The notes: generated by a model not told the origin, from the letters alone. Counted from the first letter of the stretch, positions 2,958-12,265 are shown. The stretch is DNA of 39,119 bases from Candidatus Omnitrophota bacterium (GCA_023247195.1 JAHFGY010000007.1:1-39119); one strand, 5' to 3'. A program made the numbers and translations.

Positions 2958-3455
2958 ATGGCAGTCTGTCCTCTATCGCTTGAACCGGATCCGGTGCTGC
3001 GGGGTCCGGCTGGAAAAGTGAGCGCTTTTGGCCCGCCGATTAAGCGCCTGGTCCGAAACATGCTGGATACCATGTACGCGAACGACGGGATCGGCATTGC
3101 CGCGCCGCAGATCGGCCAGCCGGTTCAAGTGTTTATCGCCAATCCGTCGCGCCGCCGGGGAGAAGAGCTCGTGGCGATCAATCCGCAACTGACACTGGGC
3201 CGCAGCCGCACCATCGGCACGGAAGGGTGTTTGAGCCTGCCAGACATTTGGGGAAAAGTGCGGCGCTTCTCTGAGGTGCGCATGAAAGCGCACGATCTGT
3301 CCGGCAAACGCTATGAAGTCGAGGCAGGCGGTTTGATGGCTGTTGTTCTGCAGCATGAGTTTGATCACCTTCAAGGAACCTTATTCATCGACCGGTTGTC
3401 TTGGATCGAGAAGCACCGTCTCCGGCGCGCGCTCCGAATACTGGCATGCGAGTGA
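2958..3455 (+). CDS. def: Peptide deformylase
   Basis: GIGIAAPQIG, EGCLS, QHEFDHLQG motifs; next to fmt. Confidence 0.97.
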   Translation: MAVCPLSLEPDPVLRGPAGKVSAFGPPIKRLVRNMLDTMYANDGIGIAAPQIGQPVQVFIANPSRRRGEELVAINPQLTLGRSRTIGTEGCLSLPDIWGKVRRFSEVRMKAHDLSGKRYEVEAGGLMAVVLQHEFDHLQGTLFIDRLSWIEKHRLRRALRILACE

Positions 3456-4375
3456 TTTTCTTCGGCACGTCCGCTTTCGCGGTTCCGAGCCTTGAGCGGC
3501 TCGTGGCCAGCGGCCACGCGGTCGTGCTCTGCGTGACGCAGCCGGATAAACCCAAAGGCAGGGGATTGAACGTGGAAGCTTCCCCCGTAAAGCAAGCGGC
3601 GCTAAAACTTAGCGTGCCGCTTGCGCAACCCGAACGCCTGAAGCGCGAATCCTTGGGTCCTGTCCAGGCCGACATCGGCGTGGTTGCGGCTTACGGCCAG
3701 CTCATCCGCCGCGACGTGCTGGACTTACCCGCTCAGGGCATTCTTGGCGTGCACCCGTCGCTCTTGCCTCGCCACCGCGGCGCGGCGCCGGTTGCTTGGG
3801 CGCTCCTAAACGGCGACCCGCTCACCGGCGTCACGATTTTCCGGCTGAACGAACGGCTCGATGCCGGCCCCATGCTTCGCACGCAAGCGTACCCGGTGCA
3901 TGAAACCGACACCACGGAAACGCTCACCGAACGCCTCGCGCTTTTTGGCGCGGATCAGCTTATTCTCACCTTGTCCGATATTGCGGAGGGCCTTGCCAAG
4001 GATGCGCCGCAAGACGATTCCGCGGCCACGCTTGCCCCGAAACTGACAAAGGAGCAAAGCCGAATTCATTGGAAGAAGGATGCCCCCGCGATCGCCCGCC
4101 AGGTGCGCGCCCTCTGGCCTTGGCCCGGAGCCCTGACCGAGCTCGGCGACACCCGCTTGAAAATCGCTTCCGCCGAAGCGCTGCCGGTTAATGCCTCAGG
4201 CCCGCCGGGCACGGTGCTGCAAGCCTCGGCGGCTGGACTCGACATTGCCGCGGGAAGCGGCGTGGTCCGCATCCGCGAGTTGCAACCCGCGGGCAAGCGG
4301 CGCATGAGCGCCGCGGCCTTTTTGGCCGGCCACCCGATCGCCCCTGGAACCTGTCTTGGAGGATCGCATGCCTGA
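3446..4375 (+). CDS. fmt: Methionyl-tRNA formyltransferase
   Basis: MRVIFFGT, TQPDKPKGRG, HPSLLPRHRGAAP, LDAGP, LQPAGKRRM; ATG 3446 overlaps the end of def. Confidence 0.96.
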   Translation: MRVIFFGTSAFAVPSLERLVASGHAVVLCVTQPDKPKGRGLNVEASPVKQAALKLSVPLAQPERLKRESLGPVQADIGVVAAYGQLIRRDVLDLPAQGILGVHPSLLPRHRGAAPVAWALLNGDPLTGVTIFRLNERLDAGPMLRTQAYPVHETDTTETLTERLALFGADQLILTLSDIAEGLAKDAPQDDSAATLAPKLTKEQSRIHWKKDAPAIARQVRALWPWPGALTELGDTRLKIASAEALPVNASGPPGTVLQASAAGLDIAAGSGVVRIRELQPAGKRRMSAAAFLAGHPIAPGTCLGGSHA

Positions 4376-5402
4376 ACTACGCAAAGACCCCTTGACCCGA
4401 CGCTGGGTCATCATCGCCACCGAACGCGCGAACCGGCCGCTCGACTTTAGCGCCTCACAGCCCGCTCCGCTGCCCGCGGCCGACTGCCCGTTCTGCGAGG
4501 GCCGGGAAGGCGACACGCGCAAAGAAATTTTTGCGGTCCGCTCCAAGGCCGGCTCGGCCGCGAACAGCGGCGGCTGGCAAGTACGCGTGATCCCGAGCCT
4601 GAACCCGGTGCTCCGCGTCGAGGGCAACCTGAACCGCCGCGCGGAAGGCATGTACGACGTTATGGACGGCGTGGGCGCCCATGAGATGATCATCGAATGC
4701 CCGCATCACGAAAACAACTTGGCCGAGCTCTCGATTGAGCAAATCGCCGCGGTTCTTACGACCGCCACCACGCGCATGGAAGATCTTTCCAAGGATCAAC
4801 GATTCCGCTACGTGCTTTGGTTTAAAAACCACGGATCCATCGCCGGCGCGGGCCGCATCGCGCACGCGCGCTCGCAGCTCATCGCCACACCGATCACGCC
4901 AAAGCTCGTCAAAGAGGAGCTCATCGGCGCTCGCCGCTATTTCGAGGAAAAAGACCGCTGCCTTTTGTGCGACCTGATCCGCCAGGAGCAAGAGGGTGGC
5001 TCGCGCATTGTCCTTGAGTCGCGCGAGATGATCGCGCTGTCGCCGTTTGCGGCCCGGTTTCCTTTTGAAGTCTGGATTTTGCCGAAAGTCCACAGCTGCG
5101 ATTTTCAGAAAGCATCGGCGGCCGTGCTGGTCGACATGGCGGGCGTGTTAAAGGGAGTGCTCTTGCGGCTCAAATCCGTGCTGGATAATCCTTCTTATAA
5201 CATCGTCCTCCACACCGCGCCGTTGCGCCACCAACGCGAGCGTTTGGGCCATTGGAAAACGCTCGAGGACGATTTTCATTGGCACTTGGAACTGATTCCT
5301 CGGCTTGCCCGTGTGGCCGGCTTCGAATGGGGGAGCGGCTTTTACATCAACCCCACGCCTCCTGAGCAAACCGCCAACTACCTGAGGAACGCGAATGTCT
5401 GA
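4368..5402 (+). CDS. GalT-family nucleotidyltransferase paralog A (catalytic His replaced by Arg)
   Basis: ELRKDPLTRRWVIIATERANRP, CPFC, HARSQ instead of HxHSQ, HWHLE, AGFEWG; SD GGAGG upstream of ATG 4368. Confidence 0.88.
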   Translation: MPELRKDPLTRRWVIIATERANRPLDFSASQPAPLPAADCPFCEGREGDTRKEIFAVRSKAGSAANSGGWQVRVIPSLNPVLRVEGNLNRRAEGMYDVMDGVGAHEMIIECPHHENNLAELSIEQIAAVLTTATTRMEDLSKDQRFRYVLWFKNHGSIAGAGRIAHARSQLIATPITPKLVKEELIGARRYFEEKDRCLLCDLIRQEQEGGSRIVLESREMIALSPFAARFPFEVWILPKVHSCDFQKASAAVLVDMAGVLKGVLLRLKSVLDNPSYNIVLHTAPLRHQRERLGHWKTLEDDFHWHLELIPRLARVAGFEWGSGFYINPTPPEQTANYLRNANV

Positions 5403-6405
5403 GCTGCGGCGAGATCCGATCACGGGCCGGTGGACCATCATCGATATGCAGGAAGGCCCGGCTCCTGAACCGCCTGCGGAAACGGAAACCCAGACTCCCG
5501 GCGTGGGGCCGCAGCACTGCCCGTTTTGCCCGGGTCATGAAAATCTCACGCCGCCTGAAATCTACGCTCAGCGCCAAGCCGGCTCGGCTCCAAACGCTGG
5601 CGGCTGGGACGTGCGCGTTGTGCCGAACAAATTCCCGGCGCTCCAAATCGAGGGAACGCTCAGCCGGCGCGGTTTTGGCGTGCTTGACCAGTGCACGGGT
5701 ATCGGCGCGCATGAGGTCATTATCGAAACGCCGAACCATACGCGCCAAACCGAAGACTTCACCGTGGATGAGCTCCTCAAGGTGCTTGAGGCTTACAAGG
5801 CTCGCTCGCTCGACCTGCGGAACGATGCGCGGTTGAAGTACTCGCTTATTTTTAAGAACGTCGGCACCGCTGCCGGGGCAACGCTCGAGCACGCGCACTC
5901 GCAGCTCATTGCGCTGCCCATCGTACCCAAACGCGTTCAAGAAGAGCTCAATGGTGCCGAGCGCTACTACGATTTCCGCGAGCGCTGCGTGTTCTGCGAC
6001 ATGCTCCACCAAGAGCTTCAGCAGGACGAGCGCATTGTTTGCGAGAACCACAGCTTTGTCGCGTATTGTCCCTTTGTGTCGCGCTTTCCTTTTGAGACGT
6101 GGATCCTGCCCAAAATCCACAACGTGGATTTTGACGCAACGCCCACCGAAGCCCTTCGCGACCTCAGCCGCCTGCTCAAGGAGGTCCTGGAGCGCCTGCG
6201 CGCTGCGCTAAACAGACCTTCCTATAACTTCATGATCCACACCGCGCCCATCGACAGCCGCCAGCGCGACACCTACCACTGGCATATCGAGCTGATACCG
6301 GCGCTTACGCGCATCGCCGGATTCGAATGGGGCACAGGCTTTTACATCAATCCCACCCCCCCGGAACAAGCCGCCGATAGGCTTCGCGGGGCGGCCATTG
6401 ATTGA
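5395..6405 (+). CDS. galT: GalT-family nucleotidyltransferase paralog B (catalytic HxH intact)
   Basis: CPFCPG, VPNKFPAL, GAHEVIIE, HAHSQ, HWHIE, AGFEWG; lacks the N-terminal RAxRP motif; start overlaps the paralog A stop. Confidence 0.9.
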   Translation: MSELRRDPITGRWTIIDMQEGPAPEPPAETETQTPGVGPQHCPFCPGHENLTPPEIYAQRQAGSAPNAGGWDVRVVPNKFPALQIEGTLSRRGFGVLDQCTGIGAHEVIIETPNHTRQTEDFTVDELLKVLEAYKARSLDLRNDARLKYSLIFKNVGTAAGATLEHAHSQLIALPIVPKRVQEELNGAERYYDFRERCVFCDMLHQELQQDERIVCENHSFVAYCPFVSRFPFETWILPKIHNVDFDATPTEALRDLSRLLKEVLERLRAALNRPSYNFMIHTAPIDSRQRDTYHWHIELIPALTRIAGFEWGTGFYINPTPPEQAADRLRGAAID

Positions 6406-6430
6406 CGACGCTGAAGCGCACTTCTATAAT
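6402..6430 (+). promoter_or_regulatory. Sigma70 promoter for gap
   Basis: TTGACG (6402-6407), 17 bp, TATAAT (6425-6430); SD AAGGAGG at about 6469-6475. Confidence 0.8.
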
Positions 6431-6479
6431 AGGTGATTGAGTACACGGCTTTTCATCACCATTTTCTTAAGGAGGTTTG

Positions 6480-7490
6480 ATGGCTATTCGGGTCGGTATT
6501 AATGGATTTGGACGCATCGGTCGGAACGTTTTCCGCGCAGGCCTCAACCGCAAAGACATTGAGTTTGTCGCGATCAACGATCTGCCCACGCCCGCTGAAA
6601 CAATGTACTACCTGCTCAAGTACGACTCGATCCTCGGCACCCTCAACGCTGACGTCAAGGTCACCGAAGGCGCGCTAACGGTCAACGGCAAGACCGTCAA
6701 GCTTTTCACCAGCAAGAACCCGGCTGAGATCCCCTGGGGCGACCTCAACGTCGACCTCGTCGTGGAATCGACCGGCGTGTTCACCGAGGCGGAGAAGGCC
6801 AAAGGCCACATCAATAAGAGCGTCAAAAAAGTCATCATCACCGCGCCGGCCAAGGGCGAAGATTTCTCGGTTGTGCTGGGGGTGAATGACAAGAACTACG
6901 AGCCGACCAAGCACCACATCATCTCGAACGCCTCATGCACCACAAATTGCGTGGTGCCCATGGCAAAGGTGCTGCACGAGACATTCAAGATCGTGCGCGG
7001 CTATATGACTACGATTCACTCGTACACCAATGACCAGCGGTTGCTGGACTTGGCGCACAAAGACGTTCGCCGCGCGCGCGCGGCCGCGCTCTCGCTGATC
7101 CCCAGCTCAACCGGAGCCGCCAAGATGGTCGGCGTGGTGTTTCCGGAGCTGAAGGGCCGAATCGACGGCACTTCCATCCGCGTTCCCACTCCGAACGTTT
7201 CTCTCGTCGATTTCAGCGCGCAGGTTGAGAAAGAGGCCACGGTCGAGTCCATCAACGCCGCATTCAAGACCGCCGCGGCTGGGCCCCTTAAGGGAATCCT
7301 TCAATATCAAACGGACCAGCTCGTCTCTCGAGACTTCAACGGCAACCCGCACTCCTGCATCTTCGACTCCACGATGACCGCTGTCGTTGATAAGAACCTC
7401 GTTAAGGCCTTTGGCTGGTATGACAACGAGTGGGGTTATTCGAACCGCGTCGTGGATTTGATCGAGTTCATCGCCAAGCGCGGCGTGTAG
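6480..7490 (+). CDS. gap: Glyceraldehyde-3-phosphate dehydrogenase, type I
   Basis: GINGFGRIGR, SNASCTTNC, WYDNEWGYS; strong SD. Confidence 0.98.
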   Translation: MAIRVGINGFGRIGRNVFRAGLNRKDIEFVAINDLPTPAETMYYLLKYDSILGTLNADVKVTEGALTVNGKTVKLFTSKNPAEIPWGDLNVDLVVESTGVFTEAEKAKGHINKSVKKVIITAPAKGEDFSVVLGVNDKNYEPTKHHIISNASCTTNCVVPMAKVLHETFKIVRGYMTTIHSYTNDQRLLDLAHKDVRRARAAALSLIPSSTGAAKMVGVVFPELKGRIDGTSIRVPTPNVSLVDFSAQVEKEATVESINAAFKTAAAGPLKGILQYQTDQLVSRDFNGNPHSCIFDSTMTAVVDKNLVKAFGWYDNEWGYSNRVVDLIEFIAKRGV

Positions 7491-7527: not shown

Positions 7528-7863
7528 ATGATACAGGAACGTCGGCAAGTTCCTCGCGCTCGAACGTATCTGCCTGTCCGGATCCAGCCAGCGAATGGCG
7601 GCCCCGCTGTCGAAACATTGACGCGGGATATCGGCTATCACGGCATGCGCTGCCTGTGTTCAACGCCGATCGCGGCCAACACGCCTGTGCGGATCTTTTT
7701 GACGCTGCCGCTGCGGCGAACGGTTGTGGCTCTGCAAGCCCAAACGCAATGGCTCCGCGAGCTGCCGCACTGCGATCAGTTTGAGGTGGGAATTGTTTTT
7801 GTAACGGAGCCGCCCGACGAGTACCGGCAGGTATTGACCAGTTATTTCAGCGCCGCGGTTTAG
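7528..7863 (+). CDS. Stand-alone PilZ-domain protein
   Basis: ERRQVPR (RxxxR), DIGYHG (variant DxSxxG), C-terminal GIVF; SD GGAGG. Confidence 0.75.
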   Translation: MIQERRQVPRARTYLPVRIQPANGGPAVETLTRDIGYHGMRCLCSTPIAANTPVRIFLTLPLRRTVVALQAQTQWLRELPHCDQFEVGIVFVTEPPDEYRQVLTSYFSAAV

Positions 7864-8386
7864 ATTTTTGTCGGGCACGTTTGCGTAAGACAGACGCTAA
7901 AACCGCTTCCGCGCCTTTTTCTTCCAGCAGGAAATCCCAGAGCTGGAGCAGCAGCCGGGAGAATTTCTTCGCCGGCCCTTTGCGCGAACGGCCTTCGGTC
8001 TGCTTGATCGCTTGCCAGCTTTGATAAGCTTCCGCTGCGTTCTTTGCGCTGCTCTTTCCAAAGACATGCGGGTGGCGGCGGATCATCTTTTCACGGGTGC
8101 GCGCCAGCATGCGCCCCAGCGAAACCCGTCCGGCCTGCTCGCCGCGCATGGCCATGAACACAACGGTGTACAGCAGGTCGCCGAGTTCTTCTTCCAGGGC
8201 GTCGGTTTGGTGCCCGTGCTTGCGCGCGGCTTCAAGCACTTCCCATGATTCTTCAACGAGGCAGGGAAGTAGGCTATCTAACGTTTGAGCCCGATCCCAC
8301 GGGCACCCTCCCGGGCCCTGCAATAGCTGAGAAGTAGCTACCAGGCCCCAGAAGGGATCTTCGGCGTGTTTGTTGGTTTGACCCAT
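7847..8386 (-). CDS. mazG: Short MazG-family nucleoside triphosphate pyrophosphohydrolase
   Basis: GCPWDRAQT, EESWEVLEA, EEELGDLL, KMIRRHPHVFG, WQAIK; ATG 8386 with GGAG upstream. Confidence 0.88.
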   Translation of the reverse strand: MGQTNKHAEDPFWGLVATSQLLQGPGGCPWDRAQTLDSLLPCLVEESWEVLEAARKHGHQTDALEEELGDLLYTVVFMAMRGEQAGRVSLGRMLARTREKMIRRHPHVFGKSSAKNAAEAYQSWQAIKQTEGRSRKGPAKKFSRLLLQLWDFLLEEKGAEAVLASVLRKRARQKSKPRR

Positions 8387-8406
8387 CTCGAAGTCTCCAT
8401 TATAAT
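8378..8406 (+). promoter_or_regulatory. Sigma70 promoter for the small protein-HIT-PilZ-GDPD-patatin run
   Basis: TTGACC (8378-8383), 17 bp, TATAAT (8401-8406). Confidence 0.75.
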
Positions 8407-8450
8407 AAGGGTTCTTGTTCGGCACAATCACAGTGAGGAGTGAGGGCAAC

Positions 8451-8621
8451 ATGGGACTGAATACACGCCCCGCGGCTTGCAGCAGCACCGGCAAACGCCT
8501 GCGGCGCAAGACCTGGTACTACCGGGACGGAAAGTATTTCTATAACAAGCGCGCCTGGGATGCTGAGAAGAGCAAGGCGGCTGAAAAGGCTGAGTCCGGG
8601 GGTGAGGCAAAGGCTGCATGA
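8451..8621 (+). CDS. Small basic hypothetical protein (56 aa), possibly a degenerate TRASH/zinc-ribbon-like fold
   Basis: Downstream of a consensus promoter, SD-like GAGGAG/GAGGG, stop overlaps the HIT start (ATGA). Confidence 0.7.
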   Translation: MGLNTRPAACSSTGKRLRRKTWYYRDGKYFYNKRAWDAEKSKAAEKAESGGEAKAA

Positions 8622-8962
8622 GCCTTTCCTGCCTCTTCTGCCGGATCGCCAAGCGCGAAATACCGGCGGAGTTTCTCGAAGAAACCGACGATTTTGTCGC
8701 GTTCAAGGATACGAATCCCCAAGCGCCTCAGCATATCCTGATCATCCCTCGCGAGCATATCGGCTCGTTGTCAGATGCCGCTGATTCCCACGCACCTTTG
8801 CTCGGCCGAGGGCTCATGCTCGCGCCCAAGCTCGCAAAGCGCTTTGGCCTGGAAACCGGCTTCCGCGTGGTGATCAACTCCGGCGCGCAAGCAGGTCAAA
8901 CCGTTTTTCACCTGCACATCCATGTTCTGGGCGGCCGTACGTTTCGGTGGCCCCCGGGATGA
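8618..8962 (+). CDS. hinT: Histidine triad (HINT-type) nucleotide-binding protein
   Basis: CLFCRI, DTNPQAPQH, GQTVFHLHIHVLGG, WPPG terminus. Confidence 0.95.
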   Translation: MSLSCLFCRIAKREIPAEFLEETDDFVAFKDTNPQAPQHILIIPREHIGSLSDAADSHAPLLGRGLMLAPKLAKRFGLETGFRVVINSGAQAGQTVFHLHIHVLGGRTFRWPPG

Positions 8963-9309
8963 GCAGTTCCCGCCAGCCCGAGCGACGTCGCGCGGTTCGT
9001 GTACCGCAGCGCGTTTCGCTCTCCATCGTCAACCCGCGTGAAGTGATCAAAGCCGAGACGCTCGACCTGAGCGCTTCCGGCGTTTACTGCACCTTGAGTA
9101 AGTTCGTGCCCGTGATGTCAAAGCTCGATCTGCATTTTGCCCTGCCGAATGATGCCGGCTCGATCCACTGCACCGGCGTGATTGTCCGTGTCGACCCGCC
9201 GAACGCTCAGCCCGGCCGCGACAACTACGAAGCGGCAATTTTCTTTTCCGACCTTCCCGAGAAAGATCGTCACGCGATCGAAACCTTTGTGCAATCCCGT
9301 TTGGCTTAA
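8959..9309 (+). CDS. Stand-alone PilZ-domain protein
   Basis: ERRRAVR and DLSASG c-di-GMP-binding motifs; ATGA overlap with HIT. Confidence 0.85.
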   Translation: MSSSRQPERRRAVRVPQRVSLSIVNPREVIKAETLDLSASGVYCTLSKFVPVMSKLDLHFALPNDAGSIHCTGVIVRVDPPNAQPGRDNYEAAIFFSDLPEKDRHAIETFVQSRLA

Positions 9310-9314
9310 CCCGC

Positions 9315-10037
9315 ATGCGCACGGGCGTCTTTGCTCACCGCGGGGCCTCGGCCGTGGCTCCTGAAAGCACCGCTTCCGCCATCACCGAAGCGGTCCGCTG
9401 CCGTGCGGATATGATCGAACTGGATGTTCAACTCTCCGCGGACGGACGGCTGGTCATCTTTCATGACGACCGGTTGGACCGCACGACCAACGGCCGCGGA
9501 TTGCTCAGCCGCGCTCCTTACCGGGAATTGGCCCGCTTGGATGCCGGCGCTTGGTTCCATCCTCGATTTGCGGGCCAGCGCATCTTGCTGGCTTCACAGG
9601 TTCTGGCGCTCGTGCCCAAGTCAATCCGCATCAATTTTGAGCTCAAGCGGACGCCGCGGAAGCAGCTCCTGATCGAAACCATCCGCCGGCTTTTGACCCG
9701 CCACCACGCTTGGTCGCGCGTCCTGATCTCCTCATTCGACAAGGATCTCATCCTTCCTTTAAAGGGCACAGCGGCGCGCCTGGCATTGATCACGCGCCAT
9801 CAAGCGGACGCTGGGCTATCACTTGCTATTGAAGCTAAGCTCAATGCATGGCATCCTTTCCATATGTTGCTTAATTCAGCTCGCTTGCAACGCGCGCATG
9901 CCGCGGGTTTGCGCGTGCATGCCTGGACCGTGGACACAGCCGCTCAAGCCGAGAAGCTGATTCGGCTCGGAGTAGACGGTCTCTTTACGAACGACCCGCT
10001 GCGATTGCGCAGCCGGCTGAGGATGAATCGGCCATGA
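9315..10037 (+). CDS. Glycerophosphodiester phosphodiesterase (UgpQ/GlpQ family), cytoplasmic
   Basis: AHRGAS..APE, IELDVQLSADG, HDDRLDRTT, ISSFD, WTVD, GVDGLFTNDP. Confidence 0.93.
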   Translation: MRTGVFAHRGASAVAPESTASAITEAVRCRADMIELDVQLSADGRLVIFHDDRLDRTTNGRGLLSRAPYRELARLDAGAWFHPRFAGQRILLASQVLALVPKSIRINFELKRTPRKQLLIETIRRLLTRHHAWSRVLISSFDKDLILPLKGTAARLALITRHQADAGLSLAIEAKLNAWHPFHMLLNSARLQRAHAAGLRVHAWTVDTAAQAEKLIRLGVDGLFTNDPLRLRSRLRMNRP

Positions 10038-12265
10038 GTTTGACCGAGTTCCCGAATCCAAAGGACAAGGCCGGCTTACTCCGCCGCATTCCTGTTTTTT
10101 CCTCCTGCACCGACCAGCAGCTTTCGTTGATCGCCGAGCGCACGCGCCTCCTCGAGGTTAAAAAAGGCGAATACGTTTACCGGGAAGGCGAGACCGCGGA
10201 CGCGCTGTACATCGTCGTGTCGGGCCGCATGCGCGTGCTCGCCCGATCCGGTAACCAGGAAGTAACGCTCGCCACGCTGCATAACGACGACTCCTTCGGC
10301 GAGATCTCGCTCCTGACCGGCGAGACCCACTCAGCCAGCATGCAGGCGGTCAATGACACGCTCATTCTGCAATTGGAAAAAGCCGATTTCGACGATGTCA
10401 TCAACCGGATTCCTTCGCTCGTCCTGCACTTGAGCCGGCTGCTTTCCAAGCGACTGCGGCTGCGCGAACGCGACGGCGCTTTTCCTGAGGCAACGATCGT
10501 TTCGGTCTACAGCGCTGCTCCCGAAGTCGGCTGTACTTTGCTGGCCGCGTGCTTGGCTGCGAGCCTTCGCCGGGAAACAGGCAGAGCCACGGTGATCGTT
10601 GATCTCGTGAATGAGGAAGGCGCGGATCCTTTGCTCTACGACGGCGCGACCGCCGTAACCGGCGCCGAGGCTTTGGATCTGCCGGTTGAAATGGCGGCCA
10701 TGTTTCGTCCGCACGTACTCGAGCATCCGCTGGGTTTTCACTTGGTCCCGGCCGGCCACCTGCGGCGCCTGCCGCGCGGAGAAGAGCTTGTCGCTCCGCT
10801 GCTGAGCGCGCTCACCAAACGCTACGGCTATATCCTGCTTGACCTGCCATCCGAGCTCTCGCCCGCGGTTTTCAAATCGCTGACCCAATCGGATCAGATC
10901 TATTTCGTCACTGATCCCGACCCGGACGGCGTCACGCGCACGAAAGCGCTGCTCGAGCGTATGCGCGAAACCGTGTCCGTCGGGCTGGGGCAACCGGTCA
11001 AATTGGTGTTCAACCGCAGACGCGATCCGGATAGCGAGCACCCACCGGAAGCGGCGCTTGGCCTGGCCGACGTCGCAACCCGGCTCGAGCGATTGATCGA
11101 CTACGTATTGCCTCACGTGGATTTCCCCACCCAGGAAGCTTCACGCCAGGACGTACAAGACATGTTGGAGAAGCAAGAATCACTCTATGCGCTCACGGTT
11201 CGCCGCATGGCGCGCGAGCTCAGCGGACGGCTGGTCGGCCTGGCTCTTGGCTCCGGCGCGGCGCTTGGCCTGGCACACATTGGCATTCTCAAAGTCCTTG
11301 AGCGCGAAAAAATCCCAATAGACATGGTGGCAGGAACCAGCATCGGCTCTCTGGTCGGCGGGCTTTGGGCCGCCGGCATCCCGGCCGCCGATCTGGAAAA
11401 GATGGCCATGCGCTTCAAAAGAGGATGGGAATTCCGACAACTTTTTATCTTGGACGTGGGTCCTCCTTTTCCCAGCCTGCTGTTTGGAGCGGCGGTCGGC
11501 GCGCTTCTATACTTTTTTACCGGATTTTGGGTAGCCCTTTTCTTCGGGATTCAGGCAAGTCTCATCGTGGGCCTTTTGCTTGGGCCCTTGGCGGGCGGCC
11601 CGATCCGCGGCGTGAACCTCATGCGCCGCATTGAAGAAGATTTCGGCGGCCGGCGCTTTGAAGACACGCGCATTCCCCTGAGAGTGGTTGCCGCGAACCC
11701 GATTTCGCGCGAGGAAGTGATCTTCGACTCCGGTCCGATCGCGGATGCGGTGCGCGCCTCGGTTTCCATTCCGGGAATCTTCAAGCCGGTCATCCGCAAG
11801 GGCAAGCTCTGCCTCGATGGTGGTATCCTGAATCCCGTACCTGTAAACGTACTCAAGCGCGCTGGCGTTCACCGTGTTATCGCGGTCAATGTTTTTCCGA
11901 CCGGAACCGAACTGGCCCAAACGCTCGAGGAAGCTCGGCTGCGCCGGGAGGAGAAAGACGCTCAACTGGCCACGCGTTCGTTCCTGATTCGTCTTTTTGC
12001 GTGGCTCCGCCAAGAAATTATCCGATCGGTTTCTCCGCTGGTCTTTGACGTGATCATGCGCTCGATGCAGACCATGGAGCACCAGATCGCCGAGGTGGCT
12101 TGCCTCCAGGCTGATTTAACCCTCCGTCCGACCGTGCCCGGTTCGCATTGGCTGGAGTTCTTCCACCCCGAGAAGTTCATTCAAAAGGGAGAAGAAACCG
12201 CGCTGCAACATCTGCCGGAAATCCGCCGCATCGCCGGGGTGCGGGACGTTGACATTTCATCGTGA
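10034..12265 (+). CDS. Cyclic-nucleotide-binding domain + degenerate P-loop domain + patatin phospholipase (NTE/RssA-like)
   Basis: N-terminal CNB (LYIVVSG, FGEISLL), MinD/CpaE-like middle (VSVYSAAPEVGCT, YILLDLP), patatin GSGAALG, GTSIG, DGG; hydrophobic insert inside the patatin domain. Confidence 0.88.
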   Translation: MSLTEFPNPKDKAGLLRRIPVFSSCTDQQLSLIAERTRLLEVKKGEYVYREGETADALYIVVSGRMRVLARSGNQEVTLATLHNDDSFGEISLLTGETHSASMQAVNDTLILQLEKADFDDVINRIPSLVLHLSRLLSKRLRLRERDGAFPEATIVSVYSAAPEVGCTLLAACLAASLRRETGRATVIVDLVNEEGADPLLYDGATAVTGAEALDLPVEMAAMFRPHVLEHPLGFHLVPAGHLRRLPRGEELVAPLLSALTKRYGYILLDLPSELSPAVFKSLTQSDQIYFVTDPDPDGVTRTKALLERMRETVSVGLGQPVKLVFNRRRDPDSEHPPEAALGLADVATRLERLIDYVLPHVDFPTQEASRQDVQDMLEKQESLYALTVRRMARELSGRLVGLALGSGAALGLAHIGILKVLEREKIPIDMVAGTSIGSLVGGLWAAGIPAADLEKMAMRFKRGWEFRQLFILDVGPPFPSLLFGAAVGALLYFFTGFWVALFFGIQASLIVGLLLGPLAGGPIRGVNLMRRIEEDFGGRRFEDTRIPLRVVAANPISREEVIFDSGPIADAVRASVSIPGIFKPVIRKGKLCLDGGILNPVPVNVLKRAGVHRVIAVNVFPTGTELAQTLEEARLRREEKDAQLATRSFLIRLFAWLRQEIIRSVSPLVFDVIMRSMQTMEHQIAEVACLQADLTLRPTVPGSHWLEFFHPEKFIQKGEETALQHLPEIRRIAGVRDVDISS

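What the first reader, a model, noticed from the sequence alone, without database searches (positions are those of the whole stretch)
4368..6405. Two GalT-family paralogs with complementary active-site losses: candidate obligate heterodimer with one composite active site
Seen: paralog A keeps the N-terminal RANRP motif (4425-4439) but has HARSQ instead of HxHSQ (CGC at 4869-4871). Its preceding loop is one residue longer (GAGRIAH vs GATLEH), and PSLNP replaces PNKFP. Paralog B keeps PNKFP (5623-5637) and HAHSQ (catalytic His codon 5896-5898) but has lost RAxRP (IIDMQEGPAPEPP). Both keep the CPFC zinc motif, HWH and AGFEWG, and the genes overlap by 8 nt. Established: GalT is a dimer with shared active sites. 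The nucleophilic His (E. coli His166) and the Asn77 region come from one chain; as I recall, Arg28/Arg31 and the GYE segment come from the partner. Inference: A lost only the catalytic-chain residues and B lost only the partner-chain arginines, so neither homodimer should work while A:B rebuilds one site. The dead site could be regulatory. No galK or galE is adjacent, so the substrate may not be Gal-1-P (for example an ADP-glucose phosphorylase-like activity).
Basis: partly seen in the sequence, partly recalled or inferred. Interest (0 to 1): 0.85.

Follow-up and report, generated by a model that had tools for sequence, protein, structure and literature searches.

The report
Split GalT-like enzyme: catalytic plus helper subunit
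Two neighbouring copies of a sugar-nucleotide enzyme in a groundwater Omnitrophota bacterium have each lost the opposite half of a shared active site, so they most likely work only as a mixed pair with one live and one dead site.

Summary
A (4368-5402) and B (5395-6405) are 48% identical. Both are most similar to Arabidopsis ADP-glucose phosphorylase At5g18200, not E. coli GalT.

The reciprocal pattern is conserved across one class of Omnitrophota.
- In 57 distinct A, 55 B and 65 single-copy relatives, the first Arg of RAxRP is kept in 57/57 A, 0/55 B and 65/65 singles.
- The nucleophile His is kept in 4/57 A (53 Arg), 54/55 B and 65/65 singles.
- A also lost the PNKFP Asn (5/57) and the phosphate-binding Ser/Thr (6/57).

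A is as conserved as B: 72 invariant columns each. A tree places one duplication inside the class. The pair lies A then B in all 30 two-match relatives.

A charge swap (A's dead loop +2, B's N-terminus -1) would favour A:B over A:A and B:B. One metagenomic protein fuses a gutted A-like half, still carrying RAKRP, to a B-like catalytic half.

The A:B model passes its controls, but solved homodimers of relatives exist. Binding and activity are untested. I judge this a new variant of a known kind, the pseudoenzyme-complemented shared active site. It is apparently undescribed for the GalT/HIT family.

The parts
3401..4375 (+). fmt (methionyl-tRNA formyltransferase). Its stop overlaps the start of A by 8 nt. 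The exact start codon was not checked.
   Evidence: Pfam Formyl_trans_N and Formyl_trans_C; ORF list
4368..5402 (+). Paralog A, 344 aa: non-catalytic helper subunit of a GalT-like / ADP-glucose-phosphorylase-like pair
   Evidence: Translation; Pfam PF01087 and PF02744; 1z84 E 2.3e-67; 57 orthologs
4425..4439 (+). A R20-A-N-R23-P24, equivalent to E. coli GalT Arg28..Pro32. Proposed to reach into B's active site in trans.
   Evidence: R20 in 57/57 A, R23 in 55/57, P24 in 56/57; trans position from PMC5081055 passages
4485..4496 (+). A C40-P-F-C43 zinc motif, retained
   Evidence: C40 and C43 in 57/57 A
4593..4607 (+). A P76-S-L-N-P80, the degenerate PNKFP motif. The Asn equivalent to E. coli Asn77 is Ser.
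   Evidence: Asn in 5/57 A against 54/54 B and 62/65 singles; the Phe column is variable in A; BLASTP alignment of B to E. coli GalT
4845..4877 (+). A loop G160-A-G-R163-I-A-H166-A-R168-S-Q170. It carries a one-residue insertion. Ser161(Ec) is Gly and the nucleophile His is Arg (CGC 4869-4871). The loop is net basic.
   Evidence: R168 in 53/57 A and 120/120 close homologs; G162 in 45/57; insertion R/K in 40/57; loop mean net charge +1.98 against -0.96 in B
5316..5333 (+). A A317-G-F-E-W-G322, the sugar-binding segment given to the partner's site (E. coli Tyr316/Glu317 region)
   Evidence: F319 and E320 in 57/57 A; residues 315-319 and 321-325 lie in the confident interface of the model
5395..5402 (+). 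8-nt overlap ATGTCTGA: start of B and stop of A
   Evidence: Sequence. 11 of 26 ortholog pairs overlap, 7 of them by 8 nt; all gaps are 128 nt or less
5395..6405 (+). Paralog B, 336 aa: catalytic subunit
   Evidence: Translation; Pfam; 1z84 E 1.9e-66; TIGR00209 107.8 bits, over the 102.1 cut-off
5437..5475 (+). B I15-IDMQEGPAPEP-P27, the degenerate and acidic N-terminal segment in place of RAxRP
   Evidence: R28(Ec) column Arg in 0/55 B; R31(Ec) column Arg in 4/55; mean net charge -1.02 against +1.93 in A and +2.05 in singles
5623..5637 (+). B P77-N-K-F-P81, intact
   Evidence: Asn in 54/54 B, Phe/Tyr in 54/54
5890..5904 (+). B H166-A-H168-S-Q170, the intact HIT motif. The nucleophile His codon is 5896-5898.
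   Evidence: H168 in 54/55 B, Q170 in 55/55
6402..6430 (+). Sigma-70-like promoter match (TTGACG, 17 nt, TATAAT; 11 of 12) at the end of B, upstream of gap
   Evidence: Consensus scan only: 2 sites found against 1.4 expected in shuffles
6477..7490 (+). gap (glyceraldehyde-3-phosphate dehydrogenase), the conserved downstream neighbour
   Evidence: Pfam; gap follows B in 5 of 8 other loci examined and pgk follows B directly in 1

Best explanation
A and B are the two subunits of an obligate heterodimeric nucleotidyl-transferase/phosphorylase of the class I GalT / ADP-glucose phosphorylase branch of the HIT superfamily. They arose by one tandem duplication of a homodimeric enzyme inside one class of Omnitrophota.

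In the homodimer each active site is composite. One chain gives the Zn site, the PNKFP Asn, the phosphate-binding Ser and the HxHxQ nucleophile. The partner chain gives the N-terminal RAxRP arginines and the C-terminal AGFEWG sugar-binding segment.

After duplication, A lost the first set and kept the second. B kept the first set and lost the arginines. An A:B dimer therefore has one complete site (B's His168 with A's Arg20/Arg23) and one dead site.

The dead site has been rebuilt electrostatically. A's loop became basic (R/K163, R/K165, R168) and B's N-terminal segment became acidic. As a result A:B pairs plus with minus at both sites, whereas A:A and B:B pair like charges.

The likely reaction is ADP-glucose (or another NDP-hexose) plus phosphate or sugar-1-phosphate, going through a nucleotidyl-His168(B) intermediate.

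Shown here: the sequence pattern, its conservation, the duplication, the co-inheritance and the charge swap.
Inferred: physical heterodimer, trans action of A's arginines, inactivity of the homodimers, and the substrate.
For: 1. Reciprocal states in 57 distinct A, 55 B and 65 single-copy relatives:
   - Ec Arg28 column: Arg in 57/57 A, 0/55 B, 65/65 singles.
   - Ec Arg31 column: Arg in 55/57 A, 4/55 B, 62/65 singles.
   - Ec Asn77 column: Asn in 5/57 A, 54/54 B, 62/65 singles.
   - Ec Ser161 column: Ser/Thr in 6/57 A, 55/55 B, 62/65 singles.
   - Ec His166 column: His in 4/57 A, 54/55 B, 65/65 singles.

2. A's arginines and Pro24 stay nearly invariant although A's own nucleophile is gone. This makes sense only if they serve another chain's site.

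3. A is as constrained as B.

4. In all 30 of 30 relatives with two matches, the genes are adjacent on the same strand with A upstream. Of same-class genomes with a match, 98 of 111 have two or three matches. Of other-class genomes with a match, 18 of 22 have one. Thirty of 80 loci from named genomes carry the pair, all labelled Omnitrophota, Planctomycet* or plain 'bacterium'. The other 50 loci, from other phyla, carry one canonical gene.

5. In the tree, A+B form a clade (SH-aLRT 99) and A forms a clade (99). The canonical singles lie outside.

6. The unbiased column scan puts the paralog-specific changes in exactly these motifs.

7. Charge swap: N-terminal segment net charge is +1.93 in A, +2.05 in singles and -1.02 in B. 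Active-site loop net charge is +1.98 in A, -0.94 in singles and -0.96 in B.

8. Cis/trans assignment from PMC5081055 passages. The bioRxiv preprint 10.64898/2026.09.13.751320 (passages) states that class I GalTs and At5g18200 are homodimers with active sites between the subunits.

9. P0123 (599 aa) is an A-like half with RAKRP but no CPFC, PNKFP or HxH, fused to a B-like half that starts at CPFC and has PNKFP and HPHTQ.

10. The A:B complex model scores ipSAE 0.76, with the best of 3 controls at 0.00.
   - That mark was reached by 58 of 80 solved complexes and 2 of 110 mismatched pairs. These counts hold only roughly, because my own alignments were used.
   - The runs agree in at least 54% of contacts, and the partner's pLDDT is at least 81.
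   - The interface is pseudo-symmetric: each chain's active-site loop and Gln170 face the other's AGFEWG segment.
   - Homodimers of relatives are solved, so the pass may reflect likeness only.

11. The own genome holds only these two family members.
Against: - No measurement of binding or activity exists.
- The confident interface of the model does not include A residues 20-24 or B residues 17-27. The trans contact of the N-terminal segment therefore rests on passages of one paper, which for Arg48 cites a homology model, and on my recollection of the E. coli structures.
- There are exceptions. Four of 57 A keep His at the nucleophile position (L030, L057, L071, L074). One of 55 B has Tyr there (L010). 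In B, the Arg28 column is Lys in 5/55, and the Arg31 column is Lys in 9/55 and Arg in 4/55.
- B keeps the trans-acting AGFEWG segment, which the model says it no longer needs for catalysis. That segment is also part of the interface.
- P0123 is a single cluster representative of unknown origin and could be an assembly artefact.
- The substrate is inferred from homology and gene content only.
Confidence: 0.7

Rival explanations
1. Two separate homodimers. B2 is the working enzyme, having replaced the arginines' role by other residues. A2 is a non-catalytic sugar-nucleotide or sugar-phosphate binding protein, acting as a sensor or regulator, that merely stays in the operon.
For: Both keep the full fold, the Zn ligands, Asn153(Ec), Gln168(Ec) and the AGFEWG segment. 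Relatives are homodimers. Some B carry Lys at the Arg columns. A's strong conservation shows function but does not say which one.
Against: - A2 would put two basic N-termini (+2) against two basic loops (+2), and B2 two acidic segments against two -1 loops.
- A's nucleotide pocket has degenerated: Asn to Ser and Phe to variable.
- Both arginines are kept in 62 or more of 65 canonical relatives yet absent from nearly all B.
- The fusion P0123 keeps only the trans-acting parts of A.
Confidence: 0.15
2. A:B heterodimer in which A is mainly a regulatory subunit. The rebuilt basic pocket of A (R/K163, R/K165, R168) binds phosphate, a sugar phosphate or a nucleotide and tunes B's site allosterically. 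This would resemble catalytic/regulatory paralog pairs in ADP-glucose pyrophosphorylase (recalled, not checked here).
For: Arg168 is specifically conserved (53/57 A; 120/120 close homologs) rather than being any residue. Basic residues were gained at positions 163 and 165. The pair sits next to gap and pgk.
Against: No ligand evidence exists. The same basic residues are explained by pairing with B's acidic N-terminus. Canonical nucleotide contacts in A are lost. This rival is compatible with the best explanation rather than exclusive of it.
Confidence: 0.1
3. A is a decaying duplicate, or the His-to-Arg codon is a sequencing or assembly error.
For: None found beyond the loss of the nucleophile itself.
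Against: - 120/120 close homologs have Arg168.
- A has 72 invariant columns, as does B.
- There are no stops in any of the 57 A orthologs used.
- Contigs of three runs from two studies cover the codon with no listed difference.
Confidence: 0.01

Closest known systems
Arabidopsis At5g18200 ADP-glucose phosphorylase (PDB 1z84, 2h39)
   Same: It is the best solved relative of both A (E 2.3e-67) and B (E 1.9e-66), aligned end to end. It shares the double HIT-like fold, CPFC, RAxRP, an N-x-[FY]-P motif and HxHSQ. It is a dimer with sites between the subunits.
   Different: It is a homodimer from one gene with two equal sites. Here two genes each hold half of the motif set. Its enzymology (ping-pong through the His) is recalled; the paper was not held.
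Class I galactose-1-phosphate uridylyltransferase (E. coli GalT, human GALT)
   Same: Same fold and composite active site. Arg28/Arg31, Asn77, Ser161, His166 and Gln168 map onto the columns that differ between A and B.
   Different: Only 25% identity between B and E. coli GalT. Both proteins score far below the PRK11720 cut-off (122 and 125 against 448 bits). No galK was found in the genome, which is 95.65% complete. The pair is probably not a Leloir enzyme.
Trypanosomatid deoxyhypusine synthase DHSc/DHSp
   Same: [quoted passage not shown]
   Different: It is an unrelated fold and chemistry, is eukaryotic and forms a heterotetramer. The GalT-like pair also shows a reciprocal charge reversal, and it is bacterial and operon-encoded.
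AdoMetDC/prozyme, and homomer-to-heteromer transitions after duplication
   Same: A dead paralog is needed for the activity of the live one (abstract start of PMC6221367). An experimental model of the transition by compensatory mutations exists (abstract start of PMC10888846).
   Different: I saw only the search listings of both papers. These are different families. In prozyme the dead partner activates allosterically rather than supplying site residues (recalled).
Avian HINTW (ASW) / HINTZ
   Same: A HIT-superfamily paralog lacking the catalytic His, proposed to heterodimerise with the active paralog. This is recalled from memory and no call supports it.
   Different: It is proposed as a dominant-negative inhibitor, not a complementing subunit. 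It is a small single-HIT protein of vertebrates.

Membership tests
Class I GalT / ADP-glucose phosphorylase (HIT superfamily, double HIT-like fold) | N- and C-terminal GalT domains (PF01087 and PF02744) over the gathering scores | tested here: met
   A scores 40.6 (cut-off 22.1) and 40.7 (cut-off 29.2). B scores 39.3 and 38.9.
Class I GalT / ADP-glucose phosphorylase (HIT superfamily, double HIT-like fold) | HxHxQ motif with the second His as nucleotidyl-accepting nucleophile | tested here: not met
   Not met by A (HARSQ; Arg in 53/57 A). Met by B (HAHSQ; His in 54/55 B). A is a non-catalytic member by descent. B is a full member.
Class I GalT / ADP-glucose phosphorylase (HIT superfamily, double HIT-like fold) | Zn ligands: Cys-x-x-Cys plus two His (E. 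coli C52, C55, H115, H164) | tested here: met
   All four are kept in 57/57 A and in at least 54/55 B.
Class I GalT / ADP-glucose phosphorylase (HIT superfamily, double HIT-like fold) | N-terminal RAxRP arginines (E. coli R28, R31) | tested here: not met
   Met by A (57/57 and 55/57). Not met by B (0/55 and 4/55).
Class I GalT / ADP-glucose phosphorylase (HIT superfamily, double HIT-like fold) | Dimer with active sites between the two subunits | tested here: inconclusive
   The model of A:B scores ipSAE 0.76 against a best control of 0.00, with a pseudo-symmetric interface. Solved homodimers of relatives exist, so the pass may be from likeness. No experiment was done.
E. coli-type GalT equivalog (Leloir pathway) | Score over the NCBIfam equivalog cut-offs, with galK and galE in the genome | tested here: not met
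   PRK11720: 122.3 and 125.2 against a cut-off of 448. TIGR00209: A 98.3 (below 102.1), B 107.8 (above). No galK match, and no galE over its cut-off, in a genome that is 95.65% complete.
ADP-glucose phosphorylase activity | ADP-glucose + Pi gives ADP + glucose-1-P through an adenylyl-His intermediate | not testable with these tools
   Only indirect evidence. The closest solved relative has this activity (recalled). glgC is over its cut-off and a GlgA-type domain is present. Family members are fused to GlgA and GH57.
Pseudoenzyme-complemented shared active site (DHSc/DHSp kind) | Paralogs derived from a homo-oligomer with inter-subunit sites, each lacking a different part of the site | tested here: met
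   Duplication shown in the tree. Reciprocal losses. Inter-subunit site from the literature passages.
Pseudoenzyme-complemented shared active site (DHSc/DHSp kind) | Activity only in the heteromer | not testable with these tools
   Needs co-expression and assay.

The most novel reading that the evidence does not exclude
The dead site is not just debris. It has been rebuilt into a conserved basic pocket (R/K163, R/K165, R168 of A, capped by B's acidic N-terminus). That pocket both enforces heterodimer assembly and senses phosphate or a sugar phosphate. The enzyme would thus become a half-of-sites, allosterically gated valve between ADP-glucose/glycogen and the adjacent gap-pgk glycolytic genes.

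The same split may also have arisen repeatedly. Of the 145 closest family representatives, 44 lack one or both motif sets, scattered over the tree. If so, heteromeric GalT-like enzymes would be common and overlooked.
Probability: 0.15. Interest if true: 0.75.

Novelty: new variant of a known kind. Interest (0 to 1): 0.62.

Why it matters
GalT-type enzymes are textbook homodimers with two equal composite sites. How far each site depends on the partner chain is usually studied with human disease alleles.

Here nature has done the experiment. One duplication was followed by clean reciprocal loss and an interface charge reversal, and the result has been kept across a whole class of uncultured bacteria.

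- It gives a directly testable case of a homomer turning into an obligate heteromer, whether by subfunctionalisation or by a constructive neutral ratchet.
- It assigns trans function to the RAxRP arginines.
- It warns that annotating both genes as 'galactose-1-phosphate uridylyltransferase', as public records do, miscounts the enzymes and probably misnames the substrate in Omnitrophota metabolic reconstructions.

Tried and rejected
- Sequencing error or strain-private change: rejected.
- Relaxed selection on A: rejected.
- 'A has an insertion before HWH': rejected. The single-copy genes carry the longer loop, so B has a deletion. The loop length also varies among canonical relatives, so I gave it no weight.
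- RNA evidence: no RNA holder was listed, and the one metatranscriptome laid gave 0 contigs. This says nothing either way.
- The At5g18200 paper could not be read. PMC4303218 held none of my search terms. Supplementary files were not consulted.
- Literature searches for a heteromeric GalT-like enzyme found nothing relevant in the held library. The terms were uridylyltransferase/heterodimer/histidine triad/paralog/inactive subunit, DUF4921/DUF4931/GalT-like/ADP-glucose phosphorylase and Omnitrophota/Omnitrophica/uridylyltransferase/galT. Subscription journals are mostly missing from that library.
- The MAFFT alignment to E. coli GalT misplaced Asn77 to Phe79. I replaced it with the BLASTP and HMMER alignments.
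- Midpoint rooting of the 217-row FastTree made the A+B ancestor test useless. Only the A-clade content and the scatter of degenerate representatives were taken from that tree.
- A:A and B:B models were not run, because the cap allows one complex job.
- Whether the scattered degenerate representatives elsewhere in the family occur as gene pairs was not followed, since that library gives no genomic context.
Full report
**Observation.**
The window holds two same-strand genes. A is at 4368-5402 (344 aa) and B at 5395-6405 (336 aa). They overlap by 8 nt and are 48% identical.
- A has R20-A-N-R-P24 at 4425-4439.
- A has PSLNP where B has PNKFP (5623-5637).
- A has a one-residue-longer loop, GAGRIAH, followed by H166-A-R168-S-Q, with CGC at 4869-4871.
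- B has HAHSQ with its nucleophile His codon at 5896-5898.
- B has IIDMQEGPAPEPP in place of RAxRP.
- Both keep CPFC, HWH and AGFEWG.

**Family.**
Both proteins match the two GalT Pfam domains over their cut-offs. Both lie far below the E. coli-type equivalog cut-off: 122 and 125 bits against 448. The best solved relative of both is Arabidopsis At5g18200, E 2.3e-67 and 1.9e-66. E. coli GalT reaches only about 1e-22. Depositors call At5g18200 a GalT-like protein; I recall it as an ADP-glucose phosphorylase, and a 2026 preprint names it so (passages). Source names of close homologs show that the organism is an Omnitrophota MAG. Its 2.16-Mb genome holds only these two family members.

**Distribution and origin.**
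- Among 41 relatives searched, 34 have a match. Thirty of those have exactly two matches, in every case adjacent, on the same strand, with A upstream.
- In a phylum sample of 251 genomes, 134 have a match.
- By my count of that table, 98 of 111 same-class genomes with a match have two or three matches.
- In the same table, 18 of 22 genomes of other classes have one match.
- Fifteen single-copy genes that I fetched are all canonical: RxxRP, PNK[FY]P and HxH.
- A scan of one genome per species returned 80 loci. Thirty carry A then B, all titled Omnitrophota, Planctomycet* or plain 'bacterium'. Fifty, from Acidobacteriota, Nitrospirota and other phyla, carry one canonical gene.
- A maximum-likelihood tree of 72 sequences (quick search) puts A+B in one clade (SH-aLRT 99) and A in one clade (99). 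B is one side of a branch, but that branch has only 44 support. The singles lie outside the A+B clade.

So one duplication inside the class produced the pair, and both copies have been co-inherited since.

**The reciprocal pattern.**
After removing duplicates there are 57 A, 55 B and 65 single-copy sequences.

| E. coli residue | A | B | Single-copy |
|---|---|---|---|
| Arg28 | Arg 57/57 | Arg 0/55 | Arg 65/65 |
| Arg31 | Arg 55/57 | Arg 4/55 | Arg 62/65 |
| Asn77 | Asn 5/57 (Ser 51) | Asn 54/54 | Asn 62/65 |
| Ser161 | Ser/Thr 6/57 (Gly 45) | Ser/Thr 55/55 | Ser/Thr 62/65 |
| His166 | His 4/57 (Arg 53) | His 54/55 | His 65/65 |

The Zn ligands, Asn153, Gln168 and the C-terminal Phe/Glu/Tyr are kept by all three groups. 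All 120 best database homologs of A have Arg168 and Arg20.

An unbiased scan of all columns finds only six A-specific changes, all inside the PNKFPA motif or the loop before HxHSQ. It finds five B-specific changes, two of which are the arginines.

A is not decaying. It has 72 invariant columns and 62.0% mean pairwise identity. B has 72 invariant columns and 60.5%.

**Which chain gives what.**
Passages of the human GALT structure paper (PMC5081055) state four things.
- The sugar-1-P site is formed by K334-Q346 of one chain plus Gln188 and Asn173 of the other.
- E. coli Arg28 and Arg31 contact UDP-glucose.
- Arg48 (E. coli Arg28) lies on the chain opposite Gln188.
- Asn97 interacts with Gln188 within one chain.

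The preprint says that class I GalTs and At5g18200 have their active sites between the two subunits, and that the Ser hydrogen-bonds the alpha-phosphate.

Hence A lost only residues of the 'catalytic' chain and B lost only the partner-chain arginines. The near-invariance of Arg20, Arg23 and Pro24 in a protein with no nucleophile of its own is itself an argument that they act in trans.

**A charge swap (new here).**

| Segment | A | Single-copy | B |
|---|---|---|---|
| N-terminal segment (E. coli 24-32), mean net charge | +1.93 | +2.05 | -1.02 |
| Active-site loop, mean net charge | +1.98 | -0.94 | -0.96 |

A gained R/K at the inserted position 163, R/K at 165 (Glu in B and in the singles) and Arg168.

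If the segments meet across the interface as in GALT, A:B pairs plus with minus at both sites. A:A and B:B pair like with like. That would drive heterodimer assembly, but it is an inference.

One weak hint of co-variation exists. In 3 of the 4 pairs where A keeps His168, B has Lys at the Arg28 column. The same is true in only 2 of 51 other pairs. The four pairs are few and partly related.

**Fusion.**
The top hit of an exhaustive profile-free search is P0123 (599 aa).
- Its first 285 residues align to A and keep RAKRP and the whole C-terminal half.
- That part lacks CPFC, PNKFP and HxH.
- The rest aligns to B from CPFC onward, with PNKFP and HPHTQ.

It looks like the heterodimer in one chain. 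The A part is stripped to exactly what the model says it contributes. It is a single representative of unknown origin.

**Model of the complex.**
A:B, each given as an alignment of 27 orthologs, scored ipSAE 0.76. The best of 3 controls scored 0.00. That mark was reached by 58 of 80 solved complexes and 2 of 110 mismatched pairs. These counts hold only roughly, because my own alignments were used. The runs agree in at least 54% of contacts, and the partner's pLDDT is at least 81.

The interface is pseudo-symmetric. Each chain's loop 158-162 and Gln170 face the other's AGFEWG segment. Homodimers of relatives are solved, so this pass shows likeness, not proof. The N-terminal segments are not in the confident interface list.

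**Context and likely reaction.**
- The gene order priA-def-fmt-A-B-gap recurs across families.
- fmt overlaps A by 8 nt, as A overlaps B.
- A-B spacing in 26 pairs is 128 nt or less, and 11 pairs overlap.
- gap has its own promoter-like site.
- The genome has glgC over its cut-off and a GlgA-type domain, no galK match, and no galE over its cut-off.
- Other family members are fused to GlgA or GH57.

An ADP-glucose (NDP-hexose) phosphorylase or transferase role is therefore more likely than Leloir GalT. This is not shown.

**Reads.**
Contigs of three DNA runs from two studies cover 4869-4871 with no listed difference. One of them is a strain with 69 differences over 1,061 bases. That table left 49 differences unshown, and the best holder may be the source sample.

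**Rivals.**
- Separate homodimers, with B2 active and A2 a binding protein, remain possible (0.15). This fits badly with the charge pattern, with A's degenerate nucleotide pocket and with the fusion.
- A mainly regulatory A subunit is compatible with the main reading (0.10).
- Decay or sequencing error is excluded.

**Comparison and novelty.**
The kind is known: a dead paralog completing a shared active site. Trypanosomatid DHSc/DHSp is the example (PMC7581365 passages). My three literature searches found no such case for GalT-like or HIT enzymes in the held library. I rate it a new variant of a known kind.

The exceptions are four A with His and one B with Tyr. In addition, 44 of 145 close family representatives lack one or both motif sets elsewhere in the family. 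Both groups deserve follow-up.

Noticed in passing
P0123 (protein; no window coordinates): Natural single-chain fusion. A gutted A-like half (RAKRP kept; CPFC, PNKFP and HxH gone) is followed by a B-like catalytic half that starts at CPFC.
   Followed up: partly
P0124-P0272: Of 145 closest family representatives under 480 aa, 101 are canonical, 27 lack the RxxR arginines, 7 lack the nucleophile His and 10 lack both. The arginine-less ones are scattered over the tree (22 label changes). Similar splits may exist in other lineages.
   Followed up: partly
P0143, P0259, P0182, P0148: GalT-like domains are fused to glycoside hydrolase family 57 (twice) and to a GlgA-type starch/glycogen synthase. 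P0148 holds two full GalT-like units, both with HxHSQ.
   Followed up: partly
L153 (G065:C1) and L154 (G060:C9); L147, L148: Some genomes with the A-B pair carry a third, canonical paralog of a different subtype (GFE[IV]GSG instead of GFEWG). The same subtype is the only copy in another family of the phylum. The window's genome lacks it.
   Followed up: partly
L032 (G037:C10): A single-copy gene in a same-class genome has all canonical motifs but sits on a very long branch (2.01) inside the A+B clade. Reversion, transfer or misplacement was not resolved.
   Followed up: no
L010 (G024), B ortholog: The B ortholog has Tyr instead of the nucleophile His (HSYSQ), while its A partner has the usual Arg. 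It could be an error or an inactive pair.
   Followed up: no
L149/L152 (G045:C39:3135-4046): A GalT-like frame is interrupted by one in-frame TAA in a small (0.9 Mb) Omnitrophota genome.
   Followed up: no
window 4368-4375 and 6402-6430: The fmt stop and the A start overlap by the same 8-nt ATGnnTGA arrangement as A and B. A near-perfect sigma-70-like promoter (11 of 12) lies at the end of B, before gap.
   Followed up: partly
window 7528-12265: Downstream lie a PilZ protein (7528-7863), a MazG pyrophosphohydrolase on the minus strand (7847-8509) and a small Hint-type HIT protein (8618-8962). A GDPD phosphodiesterase (9315-10037) and a cNMP-binding patatin-like phospholipase (10034-12265) follow.
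   Followed up: no
L050, L053, L054, L057, L064, L069, L072, L078, L079: Records titled 'uncultured Planctomycetales/Planctomycetia bacterium' carry the Omnitrophota-type A-B pair at 51-67% identity to A. The titles probably reflect coarse automatic labels.
   Followed up: no
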